Source: Candidatus Woesearchaeota archaeon (GTDB lineage: Archaea; Nanobdellota; Nanobdellia; Woesearchaeales; JAGLGH01). From it: a stretch of DNA of 64,000 nt. A program made the translations under genes and the position numbers. Location of the stretch: assembly GCA_030670545.1 (NCBI GenBank), contig DAOVBM010000003.1, positions 1,765 through 65,764 on the forward strand, written 5' to 3'. How positions within the stretch are numbered: the stretch's first letter is position 1; every line of letters begins with the position of its first letter. A model generated the notes under the pieces. That model saw only the letters and a list, made by a program, of their open reading frames with translations. It had not been told where the DNA came from and did no database searches. Below, piece by piece: positions 28,667-55,870 of this stretch.

Positions 28667-28678
28667 TATTCACCTCTT

Positions 28679-29755: not shown

Positions 29756-29891
29756 TTTTAAGAGAGAATATGTCTGAGTTTATAAATGCCACGTGGATAC
29801 CTGTCTAGTGGCAAGTGGCTTTTATCCGAGAATTCCGGTAATAATAACAAATTAAAGAATATTCAATCTGCTGCTTCAAAATCATTGCAAA

Positions 29892-30452
29892 TCAAAAACA
29901 AGGAACCGGAACAGAATCCGAAAAGAGTTCCCTTATCCTCTCTGCAAGCGTGTTCTTATCAGGCTTTTTATTAGAGAATTTATATCTTTTCATCTCAATT
30001 ATTGTGGGTAGATCGCTTTCGATAAGATACCTGACCAAAATGTCAGCAGCCCAATTATTGTCCTTTAAGTTCTGCCTGGCTTCTTCATACGAATGCATTG
30101 CGCCAAAATATTCATTATCTTTGTTCCAGTACATAATATCTTCCCCTGAAGAATCATGAATTCTGAAAATATTTGGAAGAACCGTCATTTCTATTCCTAT
30201 ATGCATCAGGATGATGCCAGCATCATAATGCAATCTATTCTTATATTGAGTCCAATACTGGATTTTTTGATACAAGGGCAGTTTAATCTTAGGAGCATGC
30301 TCTTTGTAATCTGCTATGTTCTCAGCCAGATAAATATCACTGCCCTTCAATAGGCAGATCTTTTCAGAAATAGAGGTCTGAGGAGATTGTCTTGCATACT
30401 GACTGAGGTTAATCATACTAATTTGAATAATAAAGAGATTATTTAAATTCAT
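29892..30452 (-). CDS. hypothetical protein
   Basis: 186-aa ORF between the TcmP pair and RE-A copy 3. Confidence 0.4.
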   Translation of the reverse strand: MNLNNLFIIQISMINLSQYARQSPQTSISEKICLLKGSDIYLAENIADYKEHAPKIKLPLYQKIQYWTQYKNRLHYDAGIILMHIGIEMTVLPNIFRIHDSSGEDIMYWNKDNEYFGAMHSYEEARQNLKDNNWAADILVRYLIESDLPTIIEMKRYKFSNKKPDKNTLAERIRELFSDSVPVPCF

Positions 30453-40305: not shown

Positions 40306-41514
40306 ATGGCAAAAATAAGGCTTGAATTCAGGGACATTGGGTTTGAAGAGAGAGAGGATTCTGTAAGAGTAAAATTCCTTAAGATATTCTATTTTGACAT
40401 TCCAAAAGCTGAACTTGATAAGATATCAGAGTTTGATGTTGAAGATCATGCAATAATATTCATAGGAGCAAAGCAGAATAAAGCTGAGATTAGGTTCAAT
40501 CACCTGCTTTCTATAGGGTTCTCCCAACTGAAGAACAGGATTACTGGCAAGGATGCTGTATATGTCCACAGGAATTCTGGCATACCACTTATAGGAACAA
40601 ATTACTTTGGCCTTGTTGACAGGGATACGAACATAATTGAGCTTAAGCCTATAACAAGCTGCAACATAGAATGTATATACTGTTCTGTTGCGCAGGAAAA
40701 AAGAGCAGTTGATTTTGTTGTGGAAAAGGATTATCTTGTTGAAGAATTCAGGAAGCTTGTAAAACTTAAGAATTGTGATGAGATAGAGGCGCATATCGGC
40801 GGTCAGGGTGAGCCTTTATTGTATGGAGATATCCTTGGCTTGATTAAAGGTTTATCAAATATACCTGAAGTAAAAACAATATCAGTTGATACAAACGGAA
40901 CATTGCTGTCTGAAAAGCTTATTGATGAACTTGTCGAAGCAGGGCTTACCAGGATGAACCTTTCAATAAATGCAATGGATCCTGAGCTTGCGAAGAAGAT
41001 GTCAGGCTTTCCTTATGATATTGAAAGAATAAAAAAGATGGCAGGATACATTGCATCAAAGATAGACCTTATAATAGCTCCAGTCCTTGTGCCTGGAATA
41101 AATGAGCAGGAGATACCGAAGATAATACAGTTTGCTAAGAAGATTAAAGATAAAGATGTGTGGCTAGGCATACAGAATTATCTGGAATATCGGTTCGGAA
41201 GGAGACCTGCAAAACAGATGGATTGGGATGATTTCTTTGCTCTTCTTAAGAAGTGGGAAAAAGAATTTGATATATGCCTTACAAAAATGCCTTTTACTTT
41301 TTTAAAAACATCAAAACTTGAAAAGCCATTCAAAAGAAGAGAGATTGTAAAAGCAGATATTGTATGCAGAGGCAGATTCAGGAATGAGATGATTGCAGCT
41401 GCTCAGGACAGAGCAATTGCTGTTCCCCAATGCCATAAAAAGAAAGGTAAGGTAAATCTCAAGATAACAAGAAGCAAGGATAATATATTTAGTGGAGTGG
41501 TTGTGGGGAAGTGA
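40306..41514 (+). CDS. radical SAM protein with ~110-aa N-terminal extension
   Basis: SCNIECIYCS (CxxxCxxC); GGQGEPLL glycine-rich SAM motif. TGAATG stop/start coupling to the next gene. Confidence 0.7.
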   Translation: MAKIRLEFRDIGFEEREDSVRVKFLKIFYFDIPKAELDKISEFDVEDHAIIFIGAKQNKAEIRFNHLLSIGFSQLKNRITGKDAVYVHRNSGIPLIGTNYFGLVDRDTNIIELKPITSCNIECIYCSVAQEKRAVDFVVEKDYLVEEFRKLVKLKNCDEIEAHIGGQGEPLLYGDILGLIKGLSNIPEVKTISVDTNGTLLSEKLIDELVEAGLTRMNLSINAMDPELAKKMSGFPYDIERIKKMAGYIASKIDLIIAPVLVPGINEQEIPKIIQFAKKIKDKDVWLGIQNYLEYRFGRRPAKQMDWDDFFALLKKWEKEFDICLTKMPFTFLKTSKLEKPFKRREIVKADIVCRGRFRNEMIAAAQDRAIAVPQCHKKKGKVNLKITRSKDNIFSGVVVGK

Positions 41515-42618
41515 ATGAGAATAGAAAAAATTAAAAAGGAAAAAATAAATAATAAAAAATTAGTAAAATATTTAACAAGAGATTACAAATTAAGAGATAG
41601 GTCAATAACCATTTTTGCATTACTTCACTCAAGATTCTTAAAAGAGATTTATTATACAGAAGCCTTAGATGTAATGACTGATGGACTTATAACAGTTTAT
41701 GTATCACCAAACGACACAGAAAGAATTAATGTCGATTTAGCTAAAGCAATTAAAAAAGATCCAGATTATATCTCAATAGCATTAAAAGAAGGTATTAGAA
41801 CTTTAAATCTTGTTAAGGAAACCACAGAGAAAAAAATAAAATGGAATATTGATAAAAAGGAAGCATTGACATTGATTAATGAAGCTGAAGATAATTGGAA
41901 TCAATTTGGAAGCTTTCTTGAATTCACTCATGCTTTAGGAAGAATAAATACAAAATTATCTAGATCACAACTAAACACCTTAGGGAAGTTTCATAATGAA
42001 AGAAAAAAAGTATTTCTAAAATTCTTTGTATATTTGGAAAATATTTGCTTATCCATAACAAAAGAATATCCTGAAATCAAACAAGAAGATCTTGCTTACC
42101 TAACTGTTAATGAAATTAAAAAGTATTTTTTGGGTGAATTGGAAACTTCCAAGATAAATAATTTACAAAATATTAGAAAGAAAGGTTATCTATATTATGT
42201 TTCTTCAAAAGGCGCAGAAGAATTGATTACTGATTTTAATAGTATGCGTGCAAAAGAATTACTTTTAAGAATAGAGGATGAAAAAACCCCGGAATTAAAT
42301 GGAACAAGCGTTTCAAAGGGTGTTGTAAAAGGAGAGGTAAAACTTATTTCAATAGATACAAAATTAGGCAAGGAGAATATTTCCCAAAAAATAATTGTTA
42401 CCACAATGACTACTCCTATTATGGATACCTTTTTGAAAAAAGTTGGAGGAATAATAACAGAAGAAGGAGGTATCTTATGTCACGCTGCAATTTTTGCAAG
42501 AGAAACAAATATTCCAACAATTACTCTAATCAAAAAGGTTACCAATATTTTAAAAGACGGAGATTTAGTTGAGGTTGATGCAAATAATGGAGTTGTTAAA
42601 ATTCTTAAAAAGGGTTAA
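41515..42618 (+). CDS. PEP-utilizing-enzyme mobile (phosphohistidine swivel) domain protein lacking the ATP-grasp domain
   Basis: C-terminal GGILCHAAIFARETNIPTI...DGDLVEVDANNGVVKILKK is the PEP-utilizer swivel domain. The last ~57 nt are nearly identical to 46828-46885 inside the giant ORF. Confidence 0.65.
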   Translation: MRIEKIKKEKINNKKLVKYLTRDYKLRDRSITIFALLHSRFLKEIYYTEALDVMTDGLITVYVSPNDTERINVDLAKAIKKDPDYISIALKEGIRTLNLVKETTEKKIKWNIDKKEALTLINEAEDNWNQFGSFLEFTHALGRINTKLSRSQLNTLGKFHNERKKVFLKFFVYLENICLSITKEYPEIKQEDLAYLTVNEIKKYFLGELETSKINNLQNIRKKGYLYYVSSKGAEELITDFNSMRAKELLLRIEDEKTPELNGTSVSKGVVKGEVKLISIDTKLGKENISQKIIVTTMTTPIMDTFLKKVGGIITEEGGILCHAAIFARETNIPTITLIKKVTNILKDGDLVEVDANNGVVKILKKG

Positions 42619-42992: not shown

Positions 42993-44361
42993 TTTCAGAG
43001 ATTACTTTAATTTGAGTCAATTCACGAAAACCTACAACTCCGTGTTCTCTTCCCATTCCTGATCTCTTATACCCACCAAATGGATTGCAGGAGAGCCAGT
43101 GAGTCGCATTGTTAATTTCAACAGTTCCAGATTCTATTCGGGAAGCAACTCTTTTTGCTCTATTTTTATCTTTAGTAAAAACAATTGAACCTAAACCATA
43201 GATTGTGTCATTTGCGAGATTCACTGCTTCTTCTTCAGTTTCAAAAGAAACAACAGAAAGGACAGGTCCAAATACTTCTTCTTTCCAAACTCGCATTTTT
43301 TTATTGATGTTGGTTAATAGAGTTGGAAGATAGTAAGCACCCTGTACGTCATCTGGGGAATATCCACCAATTACAACTTTCGCACCATTGTCTACTGCAT
43401 CTTTAACTTGACTTTCTAGTAGAGTTAATTGTCTTTTTGCCACCAAACTTCCAATGTTAGTTTCTGGGTCTTCGGGGTCACCTATTTTCTTAGATTCAAT
43501 TTCTTTCTTCAATCTCTGCACAACCTCGTCAAAAATTGATTTATGGACAATTAATCGTTTAAGGGCATCACAAGTTTGTCCGCAAGTCTTGAATCGCTTT
43601 GCATATATTTTGTTTACAAATTCTTCAATCTCTGCATCTTCAAACAAAATGCCTGGATTGGATCCACCAAGTTCAAGAATTGCTTTAATGAATTTCTCCC
43701 CTGCTAATTTATACAATTTTTGACCAACTTTTGTGCTTCCTGTAAACCAAATTAGATTAATGTTATCATTAACTAATTTCCATCCAATTTCTCCATCCCC
43801 ATATACCTCAGAAAACACCCCCTCGGGAAGTTCGTGGCCTAGCATAATTTTTTCTATTAATTTTCCCATCACAGGGCATTCGTCAGATATTTTGAAAACC
43901 ACAGTGTTACCTGCAAGAAGATTTGGAATAACCCCCCAGACAAACATACCAAATGGGTGATTCCATGGTGTAATAACTGCTGCTACACCAAGTGGTTCAT
44001 ACACAATTTTGTGAATTGACTCTTTATCTTCATGGGTGATTTCGTCAGAAAGTGCAGACTCAACATTTTCTAAGAACCATTTTATTTTTTCAATGTGTCC
44101 ACTTACCACTGATTTACTTTCTGTAATCGCTCTTCCTGTTTCTTTTGTAGTTAGTAAGACCATCTCATCTTTTCTTGCTTTAAAGTCCTCATAAATTGGT
44201 CTTAAAAGTTCAACTCTTTTCTTAACACCTAATTCTTTCCAAGCGAGCTTTGCTTTGTGTGCAGCTTGTACTTTCTCTTGTAATTCTATGTCAGAAGATA
44301 CATCTAATTCTCCAATTATTTCATAGTTTTTACCGGGGTTAGTTGAGGTGATTTTCGTCAT
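42955..44361 (-). CDS. NAD(P)-dependent aldehyde dehydrogenase
   Basis: ALDH motifs (FTGSTKVG, ELGGSNP, GQTC catalytic Cys region, EEVFGPV). The last ~12 codons lie inside repeat RE-B. Confidence 0.85.
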   Translation of the reverse strand: MTKITSTNPGKNYEIIGELDVSSDIELQEKVQAAHKAKLAWKELGVKKRVELLRPIYEDFKARKDEMVLLTTKETGRAITESKSVVSGHIEKIKWFLENVESALSDEITHEDKESIHKIVYEPLGVAAVITPWNHPFGMFVWGVIPNLLAGNTVVFKISDECPVMGKLIEKIMLGHELPEGVFSEVYGDGEIGWKLVNDNINLIWFTGSTKVGQKLYKLAGEKFIKAILELGGSNPGILFEDAEIEEFVNKIYAKRFKTCGQTCDALKRLIVHKSIFDEVVQRLKKEIESKKIGDPEDPETNIGSLVAKRQLTLLESQVKDAVDNGAKVVIGGYSPDDVQGAYYLPTLLTNINKKMRVWKEEVFGPVLSVVSFETEEEAVNLANDTIYGLGSIVFTKDKNRAKRVASRIESGTVEINNATHWLSCNPFGGYKRSGMGREHGVVGFRELTQIKVISESHRNPKIRLTQP

Positions 44362-44544
44362 ATATTATTTAAATTAGGTGTACTTAATAAAGATTTCTTT
44401 TAAGACGTGTAGTTAGACAGCACTTGTCCCATTTGCCCTATTGCCCCTACCCTTTTTAACAAATAGAAATTTTATTGAACTTAACACTTATTATAGACTT
44501 AAAAAGAAAACTTTATTAAACATCAATTATTTATTCTAATTAAT

Positions 44545-47500
44545 ATGAATTTAATAAAAGATTTCAGAGAAATCTCAAAATCAGATACTATTATCGCTGG
44601 AGGAAAAGGAGCATCTCTTGGAGAGATGACACAGGCAGGAATTCCTGTTCCGCCTGGTTTTGTGGTTCTTTCTGCTGCTTTTGACAGATTCATAGAAGAA
44701 ACAGATTTGAATGTAGAGATTGATGCAGCTTTAGATGAAGTTAATATCAAAGAAGTGCATACTCTTGAAAATGCTTCTGAAAAAATTCAGGCAATGATTA
44801 TATCAAAAGAAACGCCTGATGATATTAAAGAAGACGTTTTGAAATATTTTAAAGCACTTGATTCTAAATTTGTTGCAGTTCGTTCTTCTGCAACTTCAGA
44901 GGATTCTGCTTCTGCTGCATGGGCAGGACAATTAGATAGCTTTCTTAATACAACAAAAGAAACTCTCTTAGAAAATGTTAAAAAATGCTGGGCTTCGTTA
45001 TTTACTCCACGAGCTATATTTTATAGGTTTGAAAAGAAATTAGAAAAAGACAAAATTTCTGTTGCTGTTGTTGTTCAAAAGATGATTCAAAGCGAAGAAT
45101 CAGGAATCGCTTTTTCTGTTCACCCAGTTACACAAGATGAAAACCAAATAATTATTGAAGCAGGTTTTGGTTTAGGAGAAGCTATTGTTTCAGGCTCAAT
45201 TACCCCAGACAGTTATGTTATAGATAAACAAGGATTTAATATTTTAGATATAAATGTGAATGAGCAGAGTAAAGCATTATTCAAACAAAGCAATGGTGGA
45301 AACGAGTGGAAAGAGTTAGGAGAAAAAGGAAAGAAACAGGTTTTATCTGAAAAAGAGATTACTGAATTATCTAAACTTATTGTAAAAATCGAGAATCATT
45401 ATGGCTTCCCATGCGATATAGAATGGGCAAAAGAGAAAGGTAAATTCTATATTGTACAGAGCAGGCCTATTACTACGTTAAACAAAACGAAAAAGGAATC
45501 CAATACAATTAAATTGGTTTTAGGTAATCAAGATATTGATACTTCCATGCTTACATTAGAAATGACCTGGAGAGGCATGAATGATAAAAAGATTAAGTCC
45601 CAAGTTGGATTTAAAACTCCTCTTTTTTCTTGCGAAATTATCAATGGAAGAACAATAAATGGTTATATTAATCCAAAAGAATTTAAAACATTTGTAGGAA
45701 GATGTGTAAAAAGGATATTAGTAGACAAGAACTTATTAAAACATTTGAAGCAAAAATCAGAAGAGTTTGCCTCTAAAGTACAAAATATCGCTCTTGAAAA
45801 TATAAGTAAAATAGATGAGATGAATAATGATTCTTTTGCTAATCTGTTAGAAAAAATGCAGCAATATCAAAAAGAATTATCTTCATATGGAACAGTGGTT
45901 GCTTTTGTAGATGTTTTTGGAGAATTTTCCAACAAAACATCTGAAATTATTAACTCTCGTAAAAATTTAAAATATCCATCCCACATATATACTCAAGTTT
46001 TATGTAACCCTGAAATAAGAAGCCTGACAGAGCAGGCTTATAGTGATATTAAAACATCAAAAGGATCAGAAGAAAAATTGATTGAAAAATATTTTTGGTT
46101 AGATCAAGGATATATTGGAAGAGGAATTAGTAAAAAAGAAATTAAGGATATAAAAAAATGGCAACTAAAAGAGGAAATATTGCCTAAAAAAGAAATATTG
46201 TTGAAAGAGTTATCTTTAACAGAAAAGGAAAAAGATATTTTGAATATTTCTAAACAACTAATTTACATTAAATCATTAAGAGCTGATTCAAGACAATTTA
46301 TTCATGTTGTAGTAAATAGAATAATAGATAAATTATCAAAAGAATGGAATGAACCAGTTCTAAATTTAGAGTCTCTTACAGCTGATGAAGTAATAGGAAT
46401 TCTAAAACAAAAAATGCAAATCCCATTGGAATTAAACTCCAGAGTTGAACATAGTATTTTTACAATTGAAAAAGAGGGCTATAAAATACTTAAAGGAAAA
46501 GAAGCAAATGTTTTTATTGAAGAAAATATTTTAAAAGAAGAACTAAAAGATGTTAAGGAGATCACTGGTCAAGTTGCAAATCCTGGGAAAGTAAAAGGAA
46601 AGGTGAAGTTGATTTTTGGTCCTCAACATAGTAATAAAGTGCAGGAAGGAGATATACTAGTATCAACTGTGACTAGCCCACAATTATTACCTGCGATGAA
46701 AAAATCGGCAGCCTTTGTAACTGACTTAGGCGGAATTACTTCTCATGCAGCAATAGTTTCCAGAGAATTAAATAAGCCCTGTATTGTTGGCACTGAAATA
46801 GCAACTCAAATCTTAAGCGACGGAGATTTAGTTGAGGTTGATGCAAATAACGGAGTTGTTAAAATTCTTAAAAAAGCTAATGGCTCCCCTTGTGATATAG
46901 AATTGGCAAAAGAGGAAGGTAAATCTAAAATTAGTAATCTTAAAAACAATTTTTATATACTACACACTTCTGTATCTGGATTTAGTTTGTTATTATTTGA
47001 TCTTATGCTTAATATTAAAACTTACGGTGCAGTTGATTATAGGGTTTTATGTGAAAATGATATATCTTTAATGTATTTAACAAAAAAAGGAATGAAACAA
47101 GCATACCAATTAAGTAAAAAATTACTCAATAACAATTTGTTTACAAAAATATTTAATGATTCCAAAAAACTAAATGATAATTTAAAAGCATATAAACCCT
47201 CGAATCTAAATGGGAAAAATATAATTGAGGAATGGGAAAAATATGTAAAACTAGTTAATGAATTTTGTCGATTATATAGGTTTTATGAACAACCATTTCA
47301 ACAAGCATTAGAAGAAAATGTTTTAAGCTATATTCCAGAACAGAAATTAATGGAATATCTATCTAATTCTAATAAAAAACAAACAAAAAACATTAACATC
47401 AGTAGTGAGGGAAAAGTTGCTCTTGATAGGTTAATAAAACTTGGAAATATGAAATTAGAATTACATAAAAATGCGGCGAGATTAGTCACAATAGATTTGA

Positions 47501-50500
47501 TGAAGTTTGTGAAGTTTGTCGCTCAGAAAAATAGTATTTCCATACAAGTTGCACAGTCTTTAAGAAATAACGAATTTATGGATGCAATGACTGGAAAACC
47601 TGCTAATATTAGATTAGCAAAAGAACGTTTAAATGGTTGTGCATTAGTAAAAAGAAATAATAGTTGGTATTTTGATTCAGGAGACAAATATTTATATTGG
47701 AAAAATAAGATACAGAAAACTCAAAGTAAAAAAATAATTGGCAATATTGCATTTCCTGGAAAGGTAAGAGGGAAGGTTGTACTACACCTATCATGGACAG
47801 ATACTACAAAACTTAGTAAAGGCGATATTTTAGTAACCGGGATGACAAACCCTCAAATGATTCCCTTTATTAAAAATGCAGGGGCAATAATTACTGACGA
47901 AGGAGGGATCACTTGTCATGCTGCAATAATTTCTCGTGAGATGAGAAAGCCTTGTATTACAGGAACAAAAAATGCAACGCAATTATTGAAAGATGGAGAT
48001 TTAGTTGAGGTTGATGCTAATAAGGGAACTGTTACAATTCTTAAAAAAGCTAATGGCTTCACCAGTGATATAGAATTGGCAAAAGAGAAAGGTAAATCTT
48101 CTATTGTGCAGAGCAGACCGAGAACTACCATGGATAAAATATCTAAAGACCAAAGAATCTTTAAGATAGAGAAAAACAGCAATTATTTTCCTGTAGTATC
48201 TAGAAAACTCTCTTTACTTCACAAAAGTATTGGTGTTTTAGGGATTACTGATAGCAACATATATCAAAGAATTTTTGGTTTTCCTACAAGATATAAACCA
48301 TTTTATGATAGCCAACAAGGACTTTATTTTAACCGAAAATCAGTAGAATATGAAAAAAAAGAGATTTTAAAAAAGATATCAAAAGATCCAAAATATTTAG
48401 AAAAGATTTCTAAAAAATGTGAATGTGATGGAGATAAACTTTTAGATTTTAGTAAACAAATAAAAAAAACAGATTTTTCCAAAAAAACAGATGCACAGAT
48501 AAAAAATATTACTCAAAAAATTTTCAAATCTTATATTGAGTATACAGCATATATAATGCCTATTCTTTCAGTTCAGGAATATTTGGAGAAAAACATTAGA
48601 AAAAATATTGAAAAGACCATAAAAAATAAAAAACAGATAGAGAAATATTTGCATATTTTAACTGTGCCAATTAAGAATAATTTTGGTTATTTTGAACAGA
48701 TTGAAATCTTAAAATTAGCAAATTTTTATAAAAATAATAAAAACAAGATTATTCCTGCTTTAAAAAGAAAGATTGATAGATATCTTTTTGAGTTTAGTTC
48801 TATTGGCGTGAAATATGGAATCGGGAAATTATGGACTGAAAAAAGCGTAATAGAAAGGATAATTTATTTATCCAAAAAATATCCAGATAAAAAATTAAAA
48901 CATTTGCAAGATTTTCCAAAACTCCAGCAAGAAAAAATTGATTATGTTTTAAAAGAACTAAAGGCAAACAAAAATTTTAGAAAATTTGTTAAAATAGCAA
49001 GAATTTATATTTATTTAAGAACATATAGGACTGATATTATAAGCAATGCACTTGCCAATATGTTTCCTTTATTTGGAGAGATTGCCAAGAGAAATAATGC
49101 TGAATTAGAGGATATATTAAAGTGTTTGTCTAAAGAGATTATTAGTTTTGATATCCCTGATAGAGAATTCTTAAATATGAGGAATAAAACAATTTTAATA
49201 AGGAGCATTAATGGCAGGATGTATTATATATACGGAAAGGAAGCAGAAGAATTAACTAATAATCTTAAAAAGTCTGTTGGATTATATAATGAAAAAGATC
49301 AAGTAAACAAAAAGATAAACAGTTTAATAAAAGGTAGTGCGGCTAATATAGGTAAGGTAAAGGGAGAAGTAAAAATAGTTTTAGATAATAGTCAACTGGA
49401 TAATGTTTTTGATGGTGATATCCTAGTTGCTTCAATGACTACTCCTGATTTCGTTCCTGCAATGGAAAAGGCATCAGCATTTATTACAGATGAAGGTGGG
49501 ATATTATGTCATGCAGCGATTGTATCAAGAGAAATGAATAAACCATGCATAATCGGAACCAAAGTTGCCACTAAAGTTTTAAAAGATGGAGATTTAGTAG
49601 AAGTCGATGCAGATAAAGGAACTGTTACAATTCTTAAAAAAGCTAATGGTTCCCCTTGTGATATAGAATTGGCAAAAGAGAAAGGTAAATCCTCTATTGT
49701 GCAGAGCAGGCCGAGAAGTACCTTAAAAAATAAAGATTTAAAGAATAAAGATCAGGAAATATTTCAAATAATACGTGATAGGGAAATTATGTTGGCGCCA
49801 GTATATTGGGTACCAATGTCTATTACTTCGTTAGGAGCTAAGAGAATATATGGGATTATTAATAAAAACACATATCAAATATACAAAAATGGAAGAATGA
49901 AGGCTGTTTTTATAAAAAATGAAGTTGATCAAATTAGGGAGTGCATAGTAAGCAAAATATTAGATGATAATAATTATTTTAATAGAATTAGAAAGCAAAT
50001 TGAAAATAGAGAAAATAAGCTAAATAATTATTTTAAATATTTTAAGTCTATCAATCTATCTGATTTAAGTCTCCATAAAATTATAGGCTTAATCAGAAGA
50101 ATGGAAAAAGTCTACATTGATTATGAAGATTCTAACATATCAGCATGGTTTATTGCAGCAGATAAATTCCAGGCAGAATTAGAAAAAGAATTAAATATTT
50201 CTGAGAAAGATTTTCTTTTACTTCTTACTCCTAAGACTAAAACTGCTGTAAATCAATTAGAATTTGATTTAAATAAATATTTTAAACAAATAAAAACAAA
50301 CAAATTGGAACTTAAAACTGCTGCTCGTAAATTATCAGAAGATTTTGGCTGGTTGCCTTTTGGTTTTGATGGTCCAGAATACTGGGATGCAAAGTATTTT
50401 GAGAATAAACTTGAAGCTATGTTCAGAGCTAATGAAAAAAAGATACTTTCCAAATTTAATACAATGCAAAAAGAAGAAAACGAAATAGTGATTCAGCAGA

Positions 50501-51198
50501 AAGCTCTAATAATTAAATATGGACTAAATAAAAATAAACAACACCTTATTGATATTATGAATTATATAATAGTATTAACTGATAAAAGAAAAAGGCTTGT
50601 AGTTCAAACTTACTATTATTATTCTCTTATATTGAAAGAATTAGAAAAACGATATGATGTCCCATACACAAATTTAAAATATCTGTTTGCAGATGAATTA
50701 TATTTATTAGATGAACATAAACAAAAAATTTTACAATTAAGCAATAATAGAAGAAATAATGAATTTGTTGTTTTATATCAAAAAGGGAAATACACTATTC
50801 TATCCAAAAAAGCACAAAAACAATTTTTAAAAAAATTAACAAAACAATCAACCTCTTCTGTAATAAATGGGATGGTTGCTTCACAAGGTCCTAAAAAAAA
50901 ATATAAAGGCACTGTAAAAATCTTATTATCTCCAAAAGAAGTGGGAAAAATTAAAAAAGGAGATTTTTTAGTGGCTACTATGACTACTCCTGATTATATC
51001 ACTGCAATGCATCGTGCTGGAGGGTTTATAACTGATGAAGGAGGAGTTACTTGTCATGCTGCCATCACAGCAAGAGAAATGAATAAACCATGCATAATCG
51101 GAACCAAAGTTGCCACTAAAGTTTTAAAGGATGGAGATTTAGTAGAAGTTGATGCTAATAAGGGAACTGTTAAAAAAATAAATAAAACAATGAGGTGA
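44545..51198 (+). CDS. giant multi-module PEP-synthase/rifampicin-phosphotransferase-like protein: one PPDK_N ATP-grasp domain plus four iterated middle + phosphohistidine-swivel modules
   Basis: N-terminus IIAGGKGASLGEMTQAGIPVPPGF...CDIEWAKEKGKFYIVQSRPITT is the PpsA/PPDK ATP-grasp. Swivel domains GG(I/V)T(S/C)HAAI..RE..KPCI(V/I)GT at about aa 730, 1120, 1650 and 2170. Each module junction retains ANG(S/F)(P/T)(C/S)DIELAKE(E/K)GKS(S/K)I(VQSRPR), a relic of the ATP-grasp tail. 2217 aa. Confidence 0.7.
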   Translation: MNLIKDFREISKSDTIIAGGKGASLGEMTQAGIPVPPGFVVLSAAFDRFIEETDLNVEIDAALDEVNIKEVHTLENASEKIQAMIISKETPDDIKEDVLKYFKALDSKFVAVRSSATSEDSASAAWAGQLDSFLNTTKETLLENVKKCWASLFTPRAIFYRFEKKLEKDKISVAVVVQKMIQSEESGIAFSVHPVTQDENQIIIEAGFGLGEAIVSGSITPDSYVIDKQGFNILDINVNEQSKALFKQSNGGNEWKELGEKGKKQVLSEKEITELSKLIVKIENHYGFPCDIEWAKEKGKFYIVQSRPITTLNKTKKESNTIKLVLGNQDIDTSMLTLEMTWRGMNDKKIKSQVGFKTPLFSCEIINGRTINGYINPKEFKTFVGRCVKRILVDKNLLKHLKQKSEEFASKVQNIALENISKIDEMNNDSFANLLEKMQQYQKELSSYGTVVAFVDVFGEFSNKTSEIINSRKNLKYPSHIYTQVLCNPEIRSLTEQAYSDIKTSKGSEEKLIEKYFWLDQGYIGRGISKKEIKDIKKWQLKEEILPKKEILLKELSLTEKEKDILNISKQLIYIKSLRADSRQFIHVVVNRIIDKLSKEWNEPVLNLESLTADEVIGILKQKMQIPLELNSRVEHSIFTIEKEGYKILKGKEANVFIEENILKEELKDVKEITGQVANPGKVKGKVKLIFGPQHSNKVQEGDILVSTVTSPQLLPAMKKSAAFVTDLGGITSHAAIVSRELNKPCIVGTEIATQILSDGDLVEVDANNGVVKILKKANGSPCDIELAKEEGKSKISNLKNNFYILHTSVSGFSLLLFDLMLNIKTYGAVDYRVLCENDISLMYLTKKGMKQAYQLSKKLLNNNLFTKIFNDSKKLNDNLKAYKPSNLNGKNIIEEWEKYVKLVNEFCRLYRFYEQPFQQALEENVLSYIPEQKLMEYLSNSNKKQTKNINISSEGKVALDRLIKLGNMKLELHKNAARLVTIDLMKFVKFVAQKNSISIQVAQSLRNNEFMDAMTGKPANIRLAKERLNGCALVKRNNSWYFDSGDKYLYWKNKIQKTQSKKIIGNIAFPGKVRGKVVLHLSWTDTTKLSKGDILVTGMTNPQMIPFIKNAGAIITDEGGITCHAAIISREMRKPCITGTKNATQLLKDGDLVEVDANKGTVTILKKANGFTSDIELAKEKGKSSIVQSRPRTTMDKISKDQRIFKIEKNSNYFPVVSRKLSLLHKSIGVLGITDSNIYQRIFGFPTRYKPFYDSQQGLYFNRKSVEYEKKEILKKISKDPKYLEKISKKCECDGDKLLDFSKQIKKTDFSKKTDAQIKNITQKIFKSYIEYTAYIMPILSVQEYLEKNIRKNIEKTIKNKKQIEKYLHILTVPIKNNFGYFEQIEILKLANFYKNNKNKIIPALKRKIDRYLFEFSSIGVKYGIGKLWTEKSVIERIIYLSKKYPDKKLKHLQDFPKLQQEKIDYVLKELKANKNFRKFVKIARIYIYLRTYRTDIISNALANMFPLFGEIAKRNNAELEDILKCLSKEIISFDIPDREFLNMRNKTILIRSINGRMYYIYGKEAEELTNNLKKSVGLYNEKDQVNKKINSLIKGSAANIGKVKGEVKIVLDNSQLDNVFDGDILVASMTTPDFVPAMEKASAFITDEGGILCHAAIVSREMNKPCIIGTKVATKVLKDGDLVEVDADKGTVTILKKANGSPCDIELAKEKGKSSIVQSRPRSTLKNKDLKNKDQEIFQIIRDREIMLAPVYWVPMSITSLGAKRIYGIINKNTYQIYKNGRMKAVFIKNEVDQIRECIVSKILDDNNYFNRIRKQIENRENKLNNYFKYFKSINLSDLSLHKIIGLIRRMEKVYIDYEDSNISAWFIAADKFQAELEKELNISEKDFLLLLTPKTKTAVNQLEFDLNKYFKQIKTNKLELKTAARKLSEDFGWLPFGFDGPEYWDAKYFENKLEAMFRANEKKILSKFNTMQKEENEIVIQQKALIIKYGLNKNKQHLIDIMNYIIVLTDKRKRLVVQTYYYYSLILKELEKRYDVPYTNLKYLFADELYLLDEHKQKILQLSNNRRNNEFVVLYQKGKYTILSKKAQKQFLKKLTKQSTSSVINGMVASQGPKKKYKGTVKILLSPKEVGKIKKGDFLVATMTTPDYITAMHRAGGFITDEGGVTCHAAITAREMNKPCIIGTKVATKVLKDGDLVEVDANKGTVKKINKTMR

Positions 51199-52103
51199 GA
51201 AATATGTCTTTTTTTACAAATCTTGTAAACATAGAAGAACATTTTAAGAAGATAAATGAATTCATTGGAGAAACAGAATTCCCAAAAGATAAAATGAATT
51301 CAATAAAATATGAAATAAAACTTATAAATTATTATATTAAATTTATTACAAAAAAACACGAGTCAATAAATCCTGATATAGCTGCTAAGCTAATCTCAAT
51401 AAAGGATCAACTTAATAAATCACATAGGCTTTCATTATTGGAATTTAGAAAAGAATTTCTGAATATAACAAAAGAATTTGAAGCTATTTTTGATTTAACA
51501 CCAGTTTATTTAATGCGGCATCCAGAAAAACCTAAAGAAAAAACAAGGCATCTGTCTTTTGGTGGAGTAAGGCAGGCTAAAGGAGTTGCTGAATATTTAG
51601 CTGAGGAATGTTTACTTTGTCCTAAACCAGTACATGTTTATTTATTTTGCAGCGATGAAAGGAGAACTTATTTATTCGCAAATGTGATACAAAAAAAATT
51701 AGAGCAATTGACAAAGTTTTATGATAAAAAGATTAAAATAGAAAAGATTGTGCCTGATCCTGCATTATATTTTAGATTTACTAATGAAGCTATAAATGAA
51801 ACATTGGAGGAGTATAAGCAAAGTGATTTTTTAGCCTTCACTACATGGATAAAAGGAAAATATAAACTTTGTCCAAATCCAATAAAAGTGATAAAGGAGC
51901 TTGATGCCTGGGTAAAGAACTCAAAAGCAAAGAGACATAATGGAGAATGGACGATTGTTGTTGGGATATCGCATTCATTTATCATTGATGTATTGCTATC
52001 CTCAGTTACTAAAGAACATAAAAGTATTATTCCTACAGCAGGATTTGTTAAATTTAGAGGTAATCAAATGTTTTATGATAATAAATGGTATAATTTTGGT
52101 TAA
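51195..52103 (+). CDS. hypothetical protein with histidine-phosphatase (PGAM-like) C-terminal region
   Basis: YLMRHPEK (RHG-like) and VVGISHSFII (second His) spaced as in the histidine phosphatase superfamily. 4-bp overlap with the giant ORF's stop. Weak, by eye. Confidence 0.4.
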   Translation: MRNMSFFTNLVNIEEHFKKINEFIGETEFPKDKMNSIKYEIKLINYYIKFITKKHESINPDIAAKLISIKDQLNKSHRLSLLEFRKEFLNITKEFEAIFDLTPVYLMRHPEKPKEKTRHLSFGGVRQAKGVAEYLAEECLLCPKPVHVYLFCSDERRTYLFANVIQKKLEQLTKFYDKKIKIEKIVPDPALYFRFTNEAINETLEEYKQSDFLAFTTWIKGKYKLCPNPIKVIKELDAWVKNSKAKRHNGEWTIVVGISHSFIIDVLLSSVTKEHKSIIPTAGFVKFRGNQMFYDNKWYNFG

Positions 52104-52171: not shown

Positions 52172-52218
52172 AAGTAGAAGTTGATGCTAATAAGGGAACT
52201 GTTACAATTCTTAAATAA
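52172..52218 (+). repeat. 47-bp relic of the swivel-module 3' end (gtagaagttgatgctaataagggaactgttacaattcttaaataa)
   Basis: Identical or near-identical to 48009-48047, 49600-49640 and 51143-51170; encodes (V)EVDANKGTVTILK*. Confidence 0.7.
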
Positions 52219-52231
52219 GTTCTGCCATTTC

Positions 52232-54091: not shown

Positions 54092-55870
54092 CTATTTGGT
54101 TTTTTTAACTATATCAAGCTTGATATGCAGATCTTTCAGCTGCTCTGTTGTTATTTCTGAAGGGCTTCCATCCATGGGGCACTGCGCAGCCTTATTCTTA
54201 GGGAAAGGCATGACTTCTCTTATGTCATTGAATCCGCAAAGTATCGCAACAAGCCTTTCAAAGCCAATAGCAAACCCACCGTGCGGAGGCGCTCCATACT
54301 TAAATGCTTCAAGAAGGAACCCAAATCTTTCCTCAGCATCTTTCTTAGGGAATCCTACAATATTCATTATCCGTTCCTGGAGTTTTATATTATTGCATCT
54401 TATTGACCCTGAAGCAAGTTCGACTCCATTTAGCACAAGATCATAGCATTGGGCAATGACATTCTCTGGCTCAGATTCAAGAATATCCCAGTGTTCTTTT
54501 TTCGGCATTGTGAACATATGATGGGCTGGAGCCCATTCATTTTTATCATCATTCCATTCAAACAACGGGAAATCAACAACCCAAAGGAAATTGAATTCAC
54601 ATTTGTCATAAAGCTCAAGGTCTGCTCCAAGCTTATTCCTAAGCTTTGATATTATCTCATTGCATTTCGCAGGCTTATCAGCTACAAACATAAGGACGCT
54701 TCCTTGCTTTGCGCCTGTCTTTTCAATAAGCCTTTTCTGGACATCTTCATTAAAATATTTTGCAATATTACTCTCAAGCCCTTTTTCTGTCATGCGCATC
54801 CACGCCATCCCTTTTGAACCAGCCTCCTGGCAGAATGAGATATATCTGTCAATCTCTTTCCTGCTTATATCTTTTTCAGGGTTTATGCATTTCACTATGC
54901 CGCCTGATTCCACAACTGACTTGAACACTCCAAAGTCAGAATCCTTTACTATTTCGCTCACATCCGCAAGCTCAAGGCTGAATCTCATGTCTGGCTTGTC
55001 GCAGCCATATTTGTCCATAGATTCTTTGTATGTTATTCTTTTGAAAGGCGTATTGATATCGGTTTTTGTAGTTTCTTTCATAATCCTTTTTATGCAGCCT
55101 TCAACCACTTCAAAAATATCATCTTCTTCAACAAAAGACATCTCTACATCTATCTGCGTAAACTCTGGTTGCCTGTCATGCCTCAGGTCTTCGTCTCTCA
55201 GGCAGATAGGGAACTGGAAATACCTGTCAAACCCTGCTACCATCAACAGCTGCTTGTACAGCTGAGGCGACTGCGGTAAAGCATAGAACTTTCCAGGATT
55301 TACTCTTGAAGGAACTACATAATCCCTTGCGCCTTCAGGAGTTGATTTTACAAGCAGTGGTGTCTGAATCTCAATAAAATCATTTTCGCAAAAGAAATTT
55401 CTTGCAGCCTGCATTGCTATATGCTTTTTCATCATGTGCTGCTGCATCATTGGTCTTCGCAAGTCAAGATACCTATACTTGAGCCTTATATCTTCATTCA
55501 ACTCAACCCTGTCCTCTATTTCAATAGGAGGGGTCTCTGATTTATTAAGAATATCAATCTCATCAATGAATACTTCTATTTCCCCTGTCTTTAGATTAGG
55601 GTTGCGCATGCCTTCTTTTCTTGGTTTGACTGTCCCTTTTATCCTGATTACATCTTCTCTTCTCAGGCTTTCTGCTGTCTTTAATGCTTCTTTTGAGACA
55701 TCAGGGTCAAATACTATTTGGGTTATCCCATATCTATCCCTGAGGTCAATAAAGATTATCCCCCCATGGTCTCTTCTTGTGGAAACCCAGCCACAAAGGC
55801 ATACTTCACTATCCAGATTCTTTTTTGTAAGCTCACCGCATGTATGTGTCCTTAATTTTGTACTAAGCAT
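54092..55870 (-). CDS. aspS: aspartyl-tRNA synthetase, bacterial type (with GAD insertion)
   Basis: N-terminal OB domain RTHTCGEL...VCLCGWV..RRDHGGIIFIDLRD. Class II motifs (FRDED, GGFAIGFERL). 592 aa is the bacterial-type length. Confidence 0.85.
   Translation of the reverse strand: MLSTKLRTHTCGELTKKNLDSEVCLCGWVSTRRDHGGIIFIDLRDRYGITQIVFDPDVSKEALKTAESLRREDVIRIKGTVKPRKEGMRNPNLKTGEIEVFIDEIDILNKSETPPIEIEDRVELNEDIRLKYRYLDLRRPMMQQHMMKKHIAMQAARNFFCENDFIEIQTPLLVKSTPEGARDYVVPSRVNPGKFYALPQSPQLYKQLLMVAGFDRYFQFPICLRDEDLRHDRQPEFTQIDVEMSFVEEDDIFEVVEGCIKRIMKETTKTDINTPFKRITYKESMDKYGCDKPDMRFSLELADVSEIVKDSDFGVFKSVVESGGIVKCINPEKDISRKEIDRYISFCQEAGSKGMAWMRMTEKGLESNIAKYFNEDVQKRLIEKTGAKQGSVLMFVADKPAKCNEIISKLRNKLGADLELYDKCEFNFLWVVDFPLFEWNDDKNEWAPAHHMFTMPKKEHWDILESEPENVIAQCYDLVLNGVELASGSIRCNNIKLQERIMNIVGFPKKDAEERFGFLLEAFKYGAPPHGGFAIGFERLVAILCGFNDIREVMPFPKNKAAQCPMDGSPSEITTEQLKDLHIKLDIVKKTK

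What the first reader, a model, noticed from the sequence alone, without database searches (positions are those of the whole stretch)
44545..51198. 2217-aa ORF built from one PEP-synthase-type ATP-grasp domain and four iterated middle + phosphohistidine swivel modules
Known PpsA/PPDK/rifampicin-phosphotransferase-like enzymes carry one ATP-grasp and one His-swivel domain. This uninterrupted ORF carries a single N-terminal ATP-grasp (ending CDIEWAKEKGKFYIVQSRPITT) and four swivel domains (GGxT(S/C)HAAIxxRE..KPCIxGT). Each swivel is preceded by a divergent 330-470-aa middle region. Every module boundary retains a relic of the ATP-grasp C-terminal strand (ANGSPCDIELAKEKGKSSIVQSRPR). The gene therefore arose by tandem duplication of a whole ancestral gene, followed by loss of the ATP-grasp body in modules 2-4. 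The divergent middle regions with conserved swivels suggest one ATP-grasp charging several swivel histidines, each aimed at a different substrate-binding module. I do not recognise this architecture. Alternatively it is a decaying array kept open by chance.
Basis: partly seen in the sequence, partly recalled or inferred. Interest (0 to 1): 0.85.

Follow-up and report, generated by a model that had tools for sequence, protein, structure and literature searches.

The report
Four-module phosphotransfer enzyme, one ATP domain
This is a real, selected gene in a tiny symbiotic archaeon that joins one ATP-binding domain to four "substrate pocket plus phosphate-carrying histidine" modules, and it belongs to a large, unstudied enzyme family of ultra-small microbes that probably phosphorylates several different small molecules from one ATP site.

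Summary
Window 44545..51198 (+) is one uninterrupted 2217-aa ORF with one PPDK_N ATP-grasp domain and four PEP-utilizer swivel domains. All four swivels keep the GGxx[SC]H phospho-acceptor histidine.

Each of the four middle regions is a homologue of the rifampin-binding domain of rifampin phosphotransferase (RPH). Each module therefore equals HpeH/PpsA, the substrate-plus-swivel subunit of the known two-component dikinases.

It is neither an artefact nor decay. dN/dS against a 91-95% identical relative is 0.05-0.35. The internal swivel copies are near-saturated at synonymous sites.

All 120 best database homologues, from CPR bacteria and DPANN archaea, have exactly one ATP-grasp and 2-7 swivels. 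The same modules also occur as free-standing genes: one lies in this window, and a Paceibacterota locus has 13 in a row.

The ATP-grasp "relics" are real but specific to this lineage. They are predicted to be disordered and mark recent module recombination.

Best reading: a multi-substrate RPH/HpeHI-type water dikinase in which one ATP-grasp charges several swivels. This is inferred and the substrates are unknown. I found no paper describing the architecture, so I rate it a new variant of a known kind.

The parts
44545..51198 (+). Whole 2217-aa ORF: multi-module RPH/HpeHI-type dikinase (ATP-grasp plus four [substrate-binding domain + phosphohistidine swivel] modules)
   Evidence: It is the most AT-rich stretch of the window (GC 0.28-0.31 against 0.36).
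44545..45483 (+). ATP-grasp nucleotide-binding domain (aa 1-313), ending CDIEWAKEKGKFYIVQSRPITT. It is the only one in the 64-kb window.
   Evidence: Pfam PPDK_N aa 17-319, E 3.6e-107. The six-frame HMM scan finds a single copy. dN/dS is 0.098 against L001.
45484..46581 (+). Middle domain M1 (aa 314-679, type 11), an RPH rifampin-binding-domain homologue
   Evidence: hhalign to the M3 type gives 99.7% and to the M4 type 99.6%. It has an orthologue in L001 at 93.8% nt identity. dN/dS is 0.345.
46582..46878 (+). Swivel 1 (aa 680-778), His734 at 46744-46746 (GGITSH)
   Evidence: dN/dS is 0.129.
46879..46950 (+). Relic 1 of the ATP-grasp C-terminal strand (NGSPCDIELAKEEGKS...), degraded after about 13 aa
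   Evidence: pLDDT is below 50 in the module-2 model.
46951..47754 (+). Middle domain M2 (aa 803-1070, short type 14), a reduced RPH-type substrate-binding domain
   Evidence: hhalign to the M4 type gives 98.9% and to the M3 type 98.2%. The AF2 model has pLDDT 87.3, and its best PDB match is RPH-Lm 5fbu, E 2.3e-11. There is no nt counterpart in L001.
47755..48051 (+). Swivel 2 (aa 1071-1169), His1125 at 47917-47919 (GGITCH)
48052..48132 (+). Relic 2 (NGFTSDIELAKEKGKSSIVQSRPRTT), predicted to be a disordered linker
   Evidence: pLDDT is below 50 for the first ~35 residues of the model. It is absent before the orthologous module in P0002.
48133..49347 (+). Middle domain M3 (aa 1197-1601, type 0), an RPH-type substrate-binding domain. 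Its motif LRTYRTD aligns with RPH Arg666-Glu667-x-x-Lys670.
   Evidence: The profile aligns with RPH-Lm residues 452-866, E 1.9e-28. The AF2 model has pLDDT 85.3, and Foldseek gives RPH-Lm 5fbt, E 2.4e-14, TMq 0.54. dN/dS is 0.145.
49348..49644 (+). Swivel 3 (aa 1602-1700), His1656 at 49510-49512 (GGILCH)
   Evidence: dN/dS is 0.049.
49645..49725 (+). Relic 3 (NGSPCDIELAKEKGKSSIVQSRPRST)
   Evidence: pS against relic 2 is 0.26.
49726..50892 (+). Middle domain M4 (aa 1728-2116, type 2), an RPH-type substrate-binding domain
   Evidence: hhalign to the M3 type gives 100%, E 4e-41. There is no nt counterpart in L001.
50893..51195 (+). Swivel 4 (aa 2117-2217), His2171 at 51055-51057 (GGVTCH)
51204..52103 (+). 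Downstream 299-aa histidine-phosphatase-superfamily protein (RHPE ... SHS motifs). It starts 5 nt after the stop of the big ORF, or overlaps it if the GTG at 51195 is used. It is a probable partner of the system.
   Evidence: Weak Pfam His_Phos_1 hit, E 0.0023. Homologues are annotated as histidine phosphatase family and carry PF00300. Homologues lie next to swivel-module genes in L001, L040 and L041, and a second His_Phos_1 gene lies in L002.
52173..52219 (+). 47-nt remnant of the 3' end of a swivel domain (..EVEVDANKGTVTILK*). It is the trace of a lost single-module paralogue.
   Evidence: It is 90% identical to the 3' end of the 698-aa PPDK_N+swivel gene at the same place in L001.
41515..42618 (+). 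Free-standing 367-aa module: short middle domain plus swivel (GGILCH), with no ATP-grasp. It is HpeH-like and would need an ATP-grasp supplied in trans.
   Evidence: Pfam PEP-utilizers only, aa 291-359. hhalign of the N-terminal part to short type 4 gives 97%. The family has 1290 hits, mostly ~350-aa or ~480-510-aa swivel-only proteins from CPR and DPANN.

Best explanation
What it is: the ORF encodes a multi-substrate 'water dikinase' of the rifampin-phosphotransferase (RPH) / HpeHI branch of the PEP-synthase superfamily. One N-terminal ATP-grasp domain is fused to four HpeH-like modules. Each module is a helical RPH-type substrate-binding domain followed by a phosphohistidine swivel domain.

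Proposed cycle:
1. The ATP-grasp binds ATP.
2. The histidine of any one of the four swivels (His734, His1125, His1656, His2171) attacks the beta-phosphate. This gives AMP plus a pyrophosphoryl-histidine that loses Pi.
3. The charged swivel returns to its own adjacent middle domain and passes the phosphate to the small molecule bound there.
4. Because the four middle domains are of four different old types, the protein should phosphorylate up to four different substrates from one ATP site.
5. The same ATP-grasp can probably also charge the free-standing module encoded at 41515..42618.
6. The adjacent histidine-phosphatase-family protein probably either resets phospho-swivels or dephosphorylates products.

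System context: the gene is an accessory, fast-recombining member of a module 'battery' typical of DPANN archaea and CPR bacteria.

Shown: the domain composition, the homology and fold of the modules, the intact histidines, purifying selection, the family-wide 1:N architecture, the module shuffling and the phosphatase linkage.

Inferred: charging of swivels 2-4 by the single ATP-grasp, the dikinase chemistry, the distinct substrates and the role of the phosphatase.
For: Architecture: Pfam finds one PPDK_N and four swivels, and no other ATP-grasp exists in the 64-kb window. All four swivels keep GGxx[SC]H.

The modules are RPH/HpeH-like:
- The module-3 profile aligns with RPH-Lm residues 452-866 (E 1.9e-28). 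The conserved RTxRxD motif falls on RPH Arg666/Glu667/Lys670, the phosphate-transfer site (PMC4844700).
- AF2 models of modules 3 and 2 have pLDDT 85.3 and 87.3, and RPH-Lm is the best PDB match for both.
- All four middle domains are mutually homologous at 98-100% hhalign probability.

Precedent for trans-charging: in HpeHI, HpeI is the ATP-grasp and HpeH carries the substrate-binding and swivel domains. Both are needed, they form no stable complex, and the His mutant is dead. PpsAB and CreHI are built the same way (PMC12167813).

Family census:
- All 120 best homologues have exactly one ATP-grasp and 2-7 swivels.
- The split and fused forms form a continuum: L002 has swivel-only genes flanking a 7-module gene, L030 has AG+2 modules followed by 3 swivel-only ORFs, and L039 has 13 consecutive swivel-module genes with no ATP-grasp within 21 kb.
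- The closest relatives of the M3 domain are mostly 475-520-aa free-standing modules.

Selection: dN/dS is 0.05-0.35 for the ATP-grasp, M1, SW1, M3, SW3 and the downstream ORF.

Module turnover: the window has AG-11-14-0-2 and its 91-95% identical relative has AG-2'-11-0.

Phosphatase linkage.
Against: - No biochemical data exist for any member of the multi-module family, and no substrate is known.
- Whether swivels 2-4, up to about 1,850 residues from the ATP-grasp in sequence, can reach it was not modelled. I did not see the model coordinates and no complex was predicted.
- The phosphate-site motif is not uniform. M4 has T at the position of the first Arg. M2 and its type have an invariant His in place of the RTxR arginines. 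Some modules may therefore use different chemistry or be inactive.
- Module types are assorted at random within proteins, with no avoidance of repeats: 34 of 120 proteins have a repeated type against 36.7±4.5 expected. This gives no positive support for the idea that each module is non-redundant.
- HpeH alone can transfer phosphate between substrates without ATP (PMC12167813), so ATP coupling of every module is not guaranteed.
- L039 shows no ATP-grasp near its 14 modules.
Confidence: 0.6

Rival explanations
1. Only module 1 is coupled to ATP, acting in cis like RPH. Modules 2-4 and the free-standing modules work without the ATP-grasp. They would be phosphohistidine-mediated transphosphorylases that move phosphate from one phosphorylated small molecule to another, or they would be charged by a different donor.
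For: HpeH alone catalyses phosphotransfer from 4-phosphoacetophenone to acetovanillone (PMC12167813). L039 has 14 modules and no ATP-grasp within 21 kb. Free-standing modules far outnumber ATP-grasp-containing proteins among relatives of M3.
Against: In all 120 best homologues the modules stay fused to exactly one ATP-grasp, which is the most conserved part: 60-84% identity across CPR and DPANN. That conservation is hard to explain if the ATP-grasp served one module only. Known two-component relatives need the ATP-grasp subunit for net phosphorylation (PMC12167813).
Confidence: 0.15
2. The modules act together on one large or polymeric substrate, such as a cell-surface glycan, lipid or protein. 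They would phosphorylate it at several sites, in the manner of glucan water dikinase, rather than acting on several small molecules.
For: Glucan water dikinases belong to the same superfamily and act on a polymer (general knowledge). Repeated same-type modules occur in 34 of 120 proteins.
Against: No carbohydrate-binding or other targeting domain was found. The middle domains match the small-molecule-binding domain of RPH and HpeH. Module content differs between close relatives and modules also exist as single genes, which fits independent units better than a concerted machine.
Confidence: 0.1
3. The swivels form a regulatory phosphorelay or phospho-carrier chain, PTS-like, and are not catalytic modules.
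For: The swivel domain is shared with PTS Enzyme I. A histidine-phosphatase-family gene with weak SixA resemblance is linked to the system.
Against: Each swivel is paired with an RPH-type substrate-binding domain that carries a conserved basic phosphate-site motif. No HPr-like, EIIA-like or receiver partner is associated.
Confidence: 0.05
4. It is a genuine phosphoenolpyruvate synthase (pyruvate, water dikinase), as databases name its relatives.
For: NCBIfam NF005057 'phosphoenolpyruvate synthase' scores 793 bits against a cut-off of 598. The ATP-grasp and swivels are closest in sequence to archaeal PEP synthase 8a8e.
Against: The protein has no PEP/pyruvate-binding TIM-barrel domain (PF02896). 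The domain order is ATP-grasp, substrate domain, swivel, as in RPH, not as in PpsA. The NF005057 score is the sum of five stretches (one ATP-grasp plus four swivels). TIGR01418 stays below its cut-off (736 against 739.75).
Confidence: 0.02
5. It is an assembly artefact, or a decaying fusion kept open by chance.
For: The region is repetitive, and raw reads could not be checked.
Against: The repeats are only 61-84% identical at DNA level. Swivel copies have pS 0.48-0.70. dN/dS is 0.05-0.35. More than 120 independent assemblies carry the same architecture. The AF2 models are confident.
Confidence: 0.02

Closest known systems
Rifampin phosphotransferase (RPH-Lm; PDB 5FBS/5FBT/5FBU, 5HV1) and other single-chain RPH-like small-molecule dikinases (NCBIfam PRK06241 group; PigC/RedH)
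   Same: It has the same three domain kinds in the same order for module 1: ATP-grasp, helical substrate-binding domain, C-terminal phosphohistidine swivel. RPH is the best structural match for modules 2 and 3. The conserved basic motif aligns with RPH Arg666/Glu667/Lys670.
   Different: There are four substrate+swivel modules per ATP-grasp instead of one. Identity to RPH in the module is only about 15%. The RIF_Ptrans_rph score is 495 bits against a cut-off of 999. The ATP-grasp and swivels are closer to PEP synthase than to RPH. The substrates are unknown.
Two-component dikinases HpeHI (hydroxyphenylethanone kinase), PpsAB (phenylphosphate synthase) and CreHI
   Same: Each module here has the HpeH/PpsA composition, a substrate-binding domain plus a swivel with no ATP-grasp. 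The system includes a free-standing module (41515..42618) that must be charged in trans, as HpeH is by HpeI (PMC12167813).
   Different: Here the ATP-grasp is fused to a chain of four modules, and up to seven in relatives, rather than paired 1:1 as separate subunits. The hosts are DPANN archaea and CPR bacteria, not aromatic-degrading bacteria. Only the swivel parts of the modules match the NCBIfam PRK08296 models.
Phosphoenolpyruvate synthase (PpsA) / pyruvate phosphate dikinase
   Same: It has a homologous ATP-grasp (359 bits to PPDK_N) and swivel with the T-[SC]-H motif. The presumed ATP to AMP + Pi dikinase chemistry goes through phosphohistidine.
   Different: There is no PEP/pyruvate-binding TIM barrel. 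The swivel follows the second substrate domain rather than preceding it. There are four swivels.

Membership tests
RPH/HpeHI-type small-molecule dikinases (PEP-synthase superfamily) | PPDK_N-type ATP-grasp nucleotide-binding domain | tested here: met
   Pfam PF01326, aa 17-319, E 3.6e-107. The motifs GGKGASLGEM, VAVRSSATSED and DIEWA..VQSRP can be read directly in the translation.
RPH/HpeHI-type small-molecule dikinases (PEP-synthase superfamily) | Phosphohistidine swivel domain with the conserved T/S-x-x-G-G-x-x-x-H histidine | tested here: met
   Four PF00391 stretches. The motifs are TDLGGITSH, TDEGGITCH, TDEGGILCH and TDEGGVTCH.
RPH/HpeHI-type small-molecule dikinases (PEP-synthase superfamily) | Helical RIF-binding-domain-like second substrate domain placed before the swivel | tested here: met
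   Profile against RPH-Lm 452-866, E 1.9e-28. Foldseek gives RPH as the best hit for modules 3 and 2. hhalign links all four middle domains.
RPH/HpeHI-type small-molecule dikinases (PEP-synthase superfamily) | One swivel and one substrate domain per ATP-grasp (1:1, fused or as two subunits) | tested here: not met
   The ratio is 1:4 in this ORF and 1:2 to 1:7 in the 120 best homologues. This is the point of departure from the described enzymes.
RPH/HpeHI-type small-molecule dikinases (PEP-synthase superfamily) | Dikinase chemistry: ATP + substrate + H2O gives AMP + Pi + phospho-substrate through phosphohistidine | not testable with these tools
   This needs enzymology. It is inferred from homology only.
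Rifamycin-inactivating phosphotransferase Rph (equivalog) | Score above the NCBIfam NF041857 / NF000283 cut-off | tested here: not met
   495 bits against a cut-off of 999, and 350 bits against 1700. Both scores sum five stretches.
Phosphoenolpyruvate synthase (PpsA, EC 2.7.9.2) | C-terminal PEP/pyruvate-binding TIM-barrel domain (PF02896) after the swivel | tested here: not met
   Pfam reports only PF01326 and PF00391 above threshold. The middle regions have no Pfam family even at E<=10.
Phosphoenolpyruvate synthase (PpsA, EC 2.7.9.2) | NCBIfam equivalog cut-off | tested here: inconclusive
   NF005057 scores 793 against 598 and passes, but only by summing one ATP-grasp and four swivel stretches. 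TIGR01418 scores 736 against 739.75 and fails.
Two-component dikinases (HpeHI/PpsAB/CreHI) | The ATP-grasp and the substrate+swivel unit are on separate polypeptides | tested here: not met
   They are fused in this ORF. The 367-aa neighbour (41515..42618) and many relatives do have the split form.
PTS Enzyme I | HPr-binding alpha subdomain and C-terminal PEP-binding domain | tested here: not met
   Only the swivel part matches Enzyme I.

The most novel reading that the evidence does not exclude
DPANN archaea and CPR bacteria carry a combinatorial, rapidly recombining 'battery' of substrate-specific phosphorylation modules. The modules are fused in chains of up to seven or encoded as arrays of 13 or more genes. 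All are charged by a shared, highly conserved ATP-grasp and reset or complemented by a linked histidine-phosphatase-family protein. Such a system would give ultra-small symbionts a plug-and-play way to inactivate or capture many different host or competitor small molecules, such as antibiotics, phenolics and metabolites. It would be a new organisational principle for swiveling-domain enzymes: one donor site and many acceptor modules.
Probability: 0.35. Interest if true: 0.8.

Novelty: new variant of a known kind. Interest (0 to 1): 0.65.

Why it matters
Swiveling-domain dikinases (PPDK, PpsA, RPH, HpeHI, glucan water dikinase) are textbook one-donor, one-acceptor machines. A conserved family in which one ATP-grasp is combined with 2-7 fused acceptor modules, and with arrays of free-standing ones, would extend that mechanism to one donor and many acceptors.

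The family is concentrated in CPR bacteria and DPANN archaea. Their reduced genomes still devote 6-20 kb to it, so it is probably important for their symbiotic way of life. No function has been assigned to it.

There is also a practical annotation point. These proteins are currently named 'phosphoenolpyruvate synthase', 'PEP-utilizing enzyme' or 'rifampicin phosphotransferase'. The repeated swivels lift them over an equivalog cut-off. This can mislead metabolic reconstructions (gluconeogenesis) and resistome surveys of these lineages.

Tried and rejected
- Pfam on the four isolated middle regions, even at E<=10, gave only noise, so they have no Pfam family.
- The PF02350 (Epimerase_2) and PF01989 labels on homologues are summed faint hits lying on the swivel domains, not extra domains.
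- BLASTP self-comparison showed only weak M1/M3/M4 similarity and nothing for M2. Profile comparison was needed.
- I tested whether proteins avoid repeating a module type, which would support non-redundant specificities. There was no signal: 34 observed against 36.7±4.5 expected.
- The relics carry the ATP-grasp Mg/phosphate residues (E, Q, R), so I asked whether they are functional. I rejected this. They are absent from most of the family and absent before the orthologous module 3 in P0002. They are also predicted to be disordered.
- The 299-aa downstream protein has no PDB sequence match and only sub-threshold SixA similarity.
- The source genome was not found. Exact look-ups of P0001 and P0121 returned no contig record, and the GTDB genome scan gave no identical locus.
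- The sigma-70 promoter and terminator scan was uninformative, because the organism is archaeal and the counts were below the shuffled expectation.
- No tRNA and no Rfam family was found in the window.
- The afdb50 fold library was unavailable.
- Six literature searches found no description of multi-swivel dikinases.

Full report

Yes. Window 44545..51198 (+) is a single ATG-initiated ORF of 2217 codons with no internal stop. Its product is identical to a protein already in the public collection from a 66,090-bp NCBI contig (P0001).

Pfam finds one PPDK_N ATP/AMP-binding ATP-grasp domain (aa 17-319, E 3.6e-107). It also finds four PEP-utilizers 'mobile' (swivel) domains, with a summed E of 7.6e-101. 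A six-frame scan with HMMs built from these domains finds no second ATP-grasp anywhere in the 64-kb window.

All four swivels keep the phospho-acceptor motif: GGITSH (His734), GGITCH (His1125), GGILCH (His1656) and GGVTCH (His2171).

The 'relic' of the ATP-grasp C-terminal strands is also real. DIEWAKE at aa 291 is the genuine domain end, and DIELAKE recurs directly after swivels 1, 2 and 3 (aa 784, 1175, 1706). At DNA level these form a four-copy family with 61-84% identity.

There are two small corrections. Relic 1 is degraded after about 13 residues.

**2. Artefact or decay?**

Neither.
- The repeated DNA is only 61-84% identical.
- Pairs of swivel copies within the gene differ at 48-70% of synonymous sites. 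They are old paralogues, not collapsed or expanded repeats.
- A contig from another sample (L001, protein P0002) is 91-95% identical at nucleotide level in the shared parts.
- Nei-Gojobori dN/dS between the two is 0.098 (ATP-grasp), 0.345 (M1), 0.129 (SW1), 0.145 (M3), 0.049 (SW3) and 0.180 (downstream ORF).
- Both the conserved and the 'divergent' parts are therefore under purifying selection.

Raw reads could not be examined.

**3. What are the middle regions?**

They have no Pfam family. A profile of module 3 with 18 homologous modules (alignment A1) aligns with Listeria rifampin phosphotransferase (RPH-Lm) from residue 452 to 866. That span covers most of the rifampin-binding domain plus the His domain (E 1.9e-28).

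In that alignment the family's conserved motif (LRTYRTD in M3) falls on RPH Arg666-Glu667-x-x-Lys670. Stogios et al. showed these residues hold the transferred phosphate and are essential for rifampin phosphorylation (PMC4844700).

The AlphaFold2 model of aa 1170-1700 (relic 2 + M3 + SW3) has mean pLDDT 85.3 and pTM 0.82. Its best PDB matches are the RPH-Lm structures (5fbt, E 2.4e-14, TMq 0.54 over about 570 columns). The model of aa 779-1169 (relic 1 + M2 + SW2) has pLDDT 87.3 and pTM 0.85, and again matches RPH-Lm best (5fbu, E 2.3e-11).

Profile-profile comparison links all four middle domains:
- M1 to M3: 99.7%
- M1 to M4: 99.6%
- M3 to M4: 100%
- M2 to M4: 98.9%
- M2 to M3: 98.2%

M2 is a shorter version of the same domain. 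Each module is thus an RPH-type substrate-binding domain plus a swivel. That is exactly the composition of HpeH/PpsA/CreH, the non-ATP subunit of the two-component dikinases (PMC12167813).

The basic phosphate-site motif is kept in M1 (KSLRAD) and M3. It is partly kept in M4 (TDKRKR). In M2 and its type it is replaced by a conserved KLELH with an invariant His. The chemistry may therefore not be identical in all modules.

**4. The relics.**

In both models the relic residues have pLDDT below 50, so they are predicted to be disordered linker. They are not a feature of the family. In most homologues the swivel is followed by a short unrelated linker. Clear relics occur only here, partly in P0002, and as traces in a few others. 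The orthologue of module 3 in P0002 has no relic in front of it.

The three relics share derived changes relative to the true ATP-grasp end (W>L, FY>SS, I>R). They are less diverged at synonymous sites (pS 0.24-0.50, on few sites) than the swivel bodies. The simplest history has three steps:
- A full-length paralogue was fused behind a swivel, with deletion of its ATP-grasp body.
- The resulting swivel-relic junction was then propagated by recombination.
- Different, already diverged middle domains were brought in.

The close relative shows that this process is recent. The window has ATP-grasp-M(11)-M(14)-M(0)-M(2). P0002 has ATP-grasp-M(2')-M(11)-M(0). M1+SW1 and M3+SW3 are orthologous at 94-95% nt identity, while M2 and M4 have no counterpart.

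L001 also keeps a 698-aa single-module paralogue behind the downstream gene. In the window only its last 47 nt survive (52173-52219).

The gene and its downstream partner form the most AT-rich stretch of the window (GC 0.28-0.31 against 0.36). The middle domains are at 0.25-0.27. This fits a fast-evolving accessory locus.

**5. The family.**

The search of 5.8 billion proteins gave 756 hits at E<=1e-10. All 120 best hits have exactly one ATP-grasp body and several swivels. By swivel number they divide as follows:

| Swivels per protein | Proteins |
|---|---|
| 2 | 9 |
| 3 | 71 |
| 4 | 24 |
| 5 | 10 |
| 6 | 2 |
| 7 | 4 |

The ATP-grasp is N-terminal in 118 of them. This ranking favours multi-swivel proteins, so it shows prevalence, not proportion.

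Named sources are Parcubacteria/Paceibacterota, other Patescibacteria (CPR), Nanoarchaeota, Woesearchaeota and 'archaeon' (DPANN). A scan of species-representative genomes adds Gracilibacteria, Uhr-, Falkow-, Magasanik-, Moranii-, Sacchari- and Peribacteria and Pacearchaeota. It also shows many ordinary single-module (660-890 aa) relatives.

The ATP-grasp is 60-84% identical across these bacteria and archaea.

I extracted 417 middle domains. Of these, 390 form one single-linkage cluster. They fall into about ten larger types in two size classes, roughly 250 and 380 aa. The types are combined in variable order, statistically at random.

The same modules are also encoded as separate genes without an ATP-grasp:
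- The 367-aa ORF at 41515..42618 in this window. Its family has 1290 hits, mostly proteins of about 350 or about 500 aa.
- Two swivel-only genes flanking the 7-module gene of a Parcubacteria genome (L002).
- Three swivel-only ORFs behind a 2-module gene in a Saccharibacteria MAG (L030).
- Thirteen consecutive genes carrying 14 swivels, 13 of them with the GGxxxH motif, in a Paceibacterota contig with no ATP-grasp within 21 kb (L039).

An exhaustive HMMER search with M3 alone found 560 representatives (E<=1e-3). The best are mostly 475-520-aa free-standing modules.

**6. Organism.**

The window encodes an archaeal EF-2 (TIGR00490, 1053 bits against a cut-off of 738) and a bacterial-type AspRS with a GAD domain. 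Homologues of the downstream gene are from Nanoarchaeota. The source is most likely a DPANN archaeon.

**7. Linked phosphatase.**

The ORF just downstream (51204..52103, 299 aa) has a weak His_Phos_1 match and the RH..E and SH motifs, which can be read directly. Its homologues are annotated as histidine phosphatase family proteins.

In every context examined, a homologue or another His_Phos_1 gene lies beside swivel-module genes:
- L001 (93% identical, same position)
- L040 (directly after a 479-aa swivel-only gene)
- L041 (four swivel-only genes within 7 kb plus a second His_Phos_1 gene)
- L002 (a 178-aa His_Phos_1 gene)

Similarity to the phosphohistidine phosphatase SixA is only sub-threshold. 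Its role, whether resetting phospho-swivels or dephosphorylating products, is a hypothesis.

**8. How it most likely works.**

By homology with RPH (PMC4844700) and HpeHI (PMC12167813):
1. The ATP-grasp binds ATP.
2. A swivel histidine takes the beta-phosphate, releasing AMP and Pi.
3. The swivel then docks on its own middle domain and phosphorylates the bound small molecule.

HpeHI, PpsAB and CreHI show that an ATP-grasp on a separate polypeptide, forming only a transient complex, is sufficient. It is therefore mechanistically plausible that one ATP-grasp serves four tethered swivels, joined by disordered linkers, and also free-standing modules. The strict 1:N stoichiometry across the family argues the same way.

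I put this at about 0.6. The charging of swivels 2-4, the dikinase chemistry and the existence of different substrates are all inferred. What the substrates are is unknown. The accessory, fast-shuffling character and the RPH precedent suggest xenobiotics or host-derived compounds, but nothing here tests that.

**9. Rivals.**
- Modules 2-4 may work as ATP-independent transphosphorylases, as HpeH alone can do (0.15).
- The modules may modify one polymer at several sites (0.1).
- The swivels may form a phosphorelay (0.05).
- It is not a true PEP synthase (0.02). There is no PEP/pyruvate TIM barrel, and the NF005057 cut-off is passed only because five stretches are summed.
- Artefact or decay is contradicted by selection, divergence and independent assemblies (0.02).

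**10. Novelty.**

Every domain is of a known kind and the proteins are already in databases under generic or wrong names. Six literature searches found no description of dikinases with several swivel or substrate modules per ATP-grasp, nor of the module arrays in CPR and DPANN. That library is not complete.

I classify it as a new variant of a known kind. It is interesting mainly at the family level, not as a unique oddity of this window.

Noticed in passing
window 52173-52219 (+): This is a 47-nt remnant encoding ..EVEVDANKGTVTILK*, the 3' end of a swivel domain. In the close relative L001 a complete 698-aa single-module ATP-grasp+swivel gene sits at this place (L001 6935-9031). The window's genome has lost that gene.
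   Followed up: yes
window 40306-41514 (+) and 41515-42618 (+): A 402-aa radical SAM protein (weak MoaA-like, below the cut-offs) ends 1 nt before the start of the free-standing swivel-only module. This suggests co-translation and perhaps a functional link. The pairing was not seen in the two contexts of module homologues that I inspected (L038, L039).
   Followed up: partly
locus L039 3128-21056 (Paceibacterota, JGI 3300037810 Ga0376277_0000148): Thirteen consecutive genes all encode substrate-domain+swivel modules, 14 swivels in total, 13 of them with the GGxxxH motif. The array has no ATP-grasp within the 21 kb seen and runs off the end of the locus. That is a remarkable investment for a small genome.
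   Followed up: partly
window 51204-52103 (+); loci L001, L002, L040, L041: Histidine-phosphatase-superfamily genes (sub-threshold SixA-like) lie beside swivel-module genes in all four other contexts inspected. This is a possible conserved partner of the dikinase modules.
   Followed up: partly
window 38060-40231 (+) and 54092-55870 (-): An archaeal EF-2 (TIGR00490, 1053 bits) and a bacterial-type aspartyl-tRNA synthetase with a GAD domain (TIGR00459, 753 bits) lie on the same contig. This mixed archaeal and bacterial gene set is typical of DPANN archaea.
   Followed up: no
window 44000-52000 and 28001-30000: The dikinase locus is the most AT-rich part of the window (GC 0.28-0.31 against a mean of 0.36). 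Its middle domains are at 0.25-0.27 and its swivels at 0.33-0.38. A second AT-rich patch (GC 0.289) lies at 28-30 kb and was not examined.
   Followed up: partly
whole ORF 44545-51198: There is an annotation hazard. The NCBIfam equivalog model for phosphoenolpyruvate synthase (NF005057) is passed (793 bits against 598) only because one ATP-grasp and four swivel stretches are summed. The PEP/pyruvate-binding domain is absent.
   Followed up: yes
window 46951-47754 (M2) and alignment A2: In the short type-14 middle domain, the arginine motif that aligns with RPH Arg666 is replaced by a conserved KLELH with an invariant histidine. This hints at a different phosphate-site chemistry in this module type.
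   Followed up: no
window 1-64000: No tRNA gene and no Rfam family at gathering threshold was found in 64 kb.
   Followed up: no
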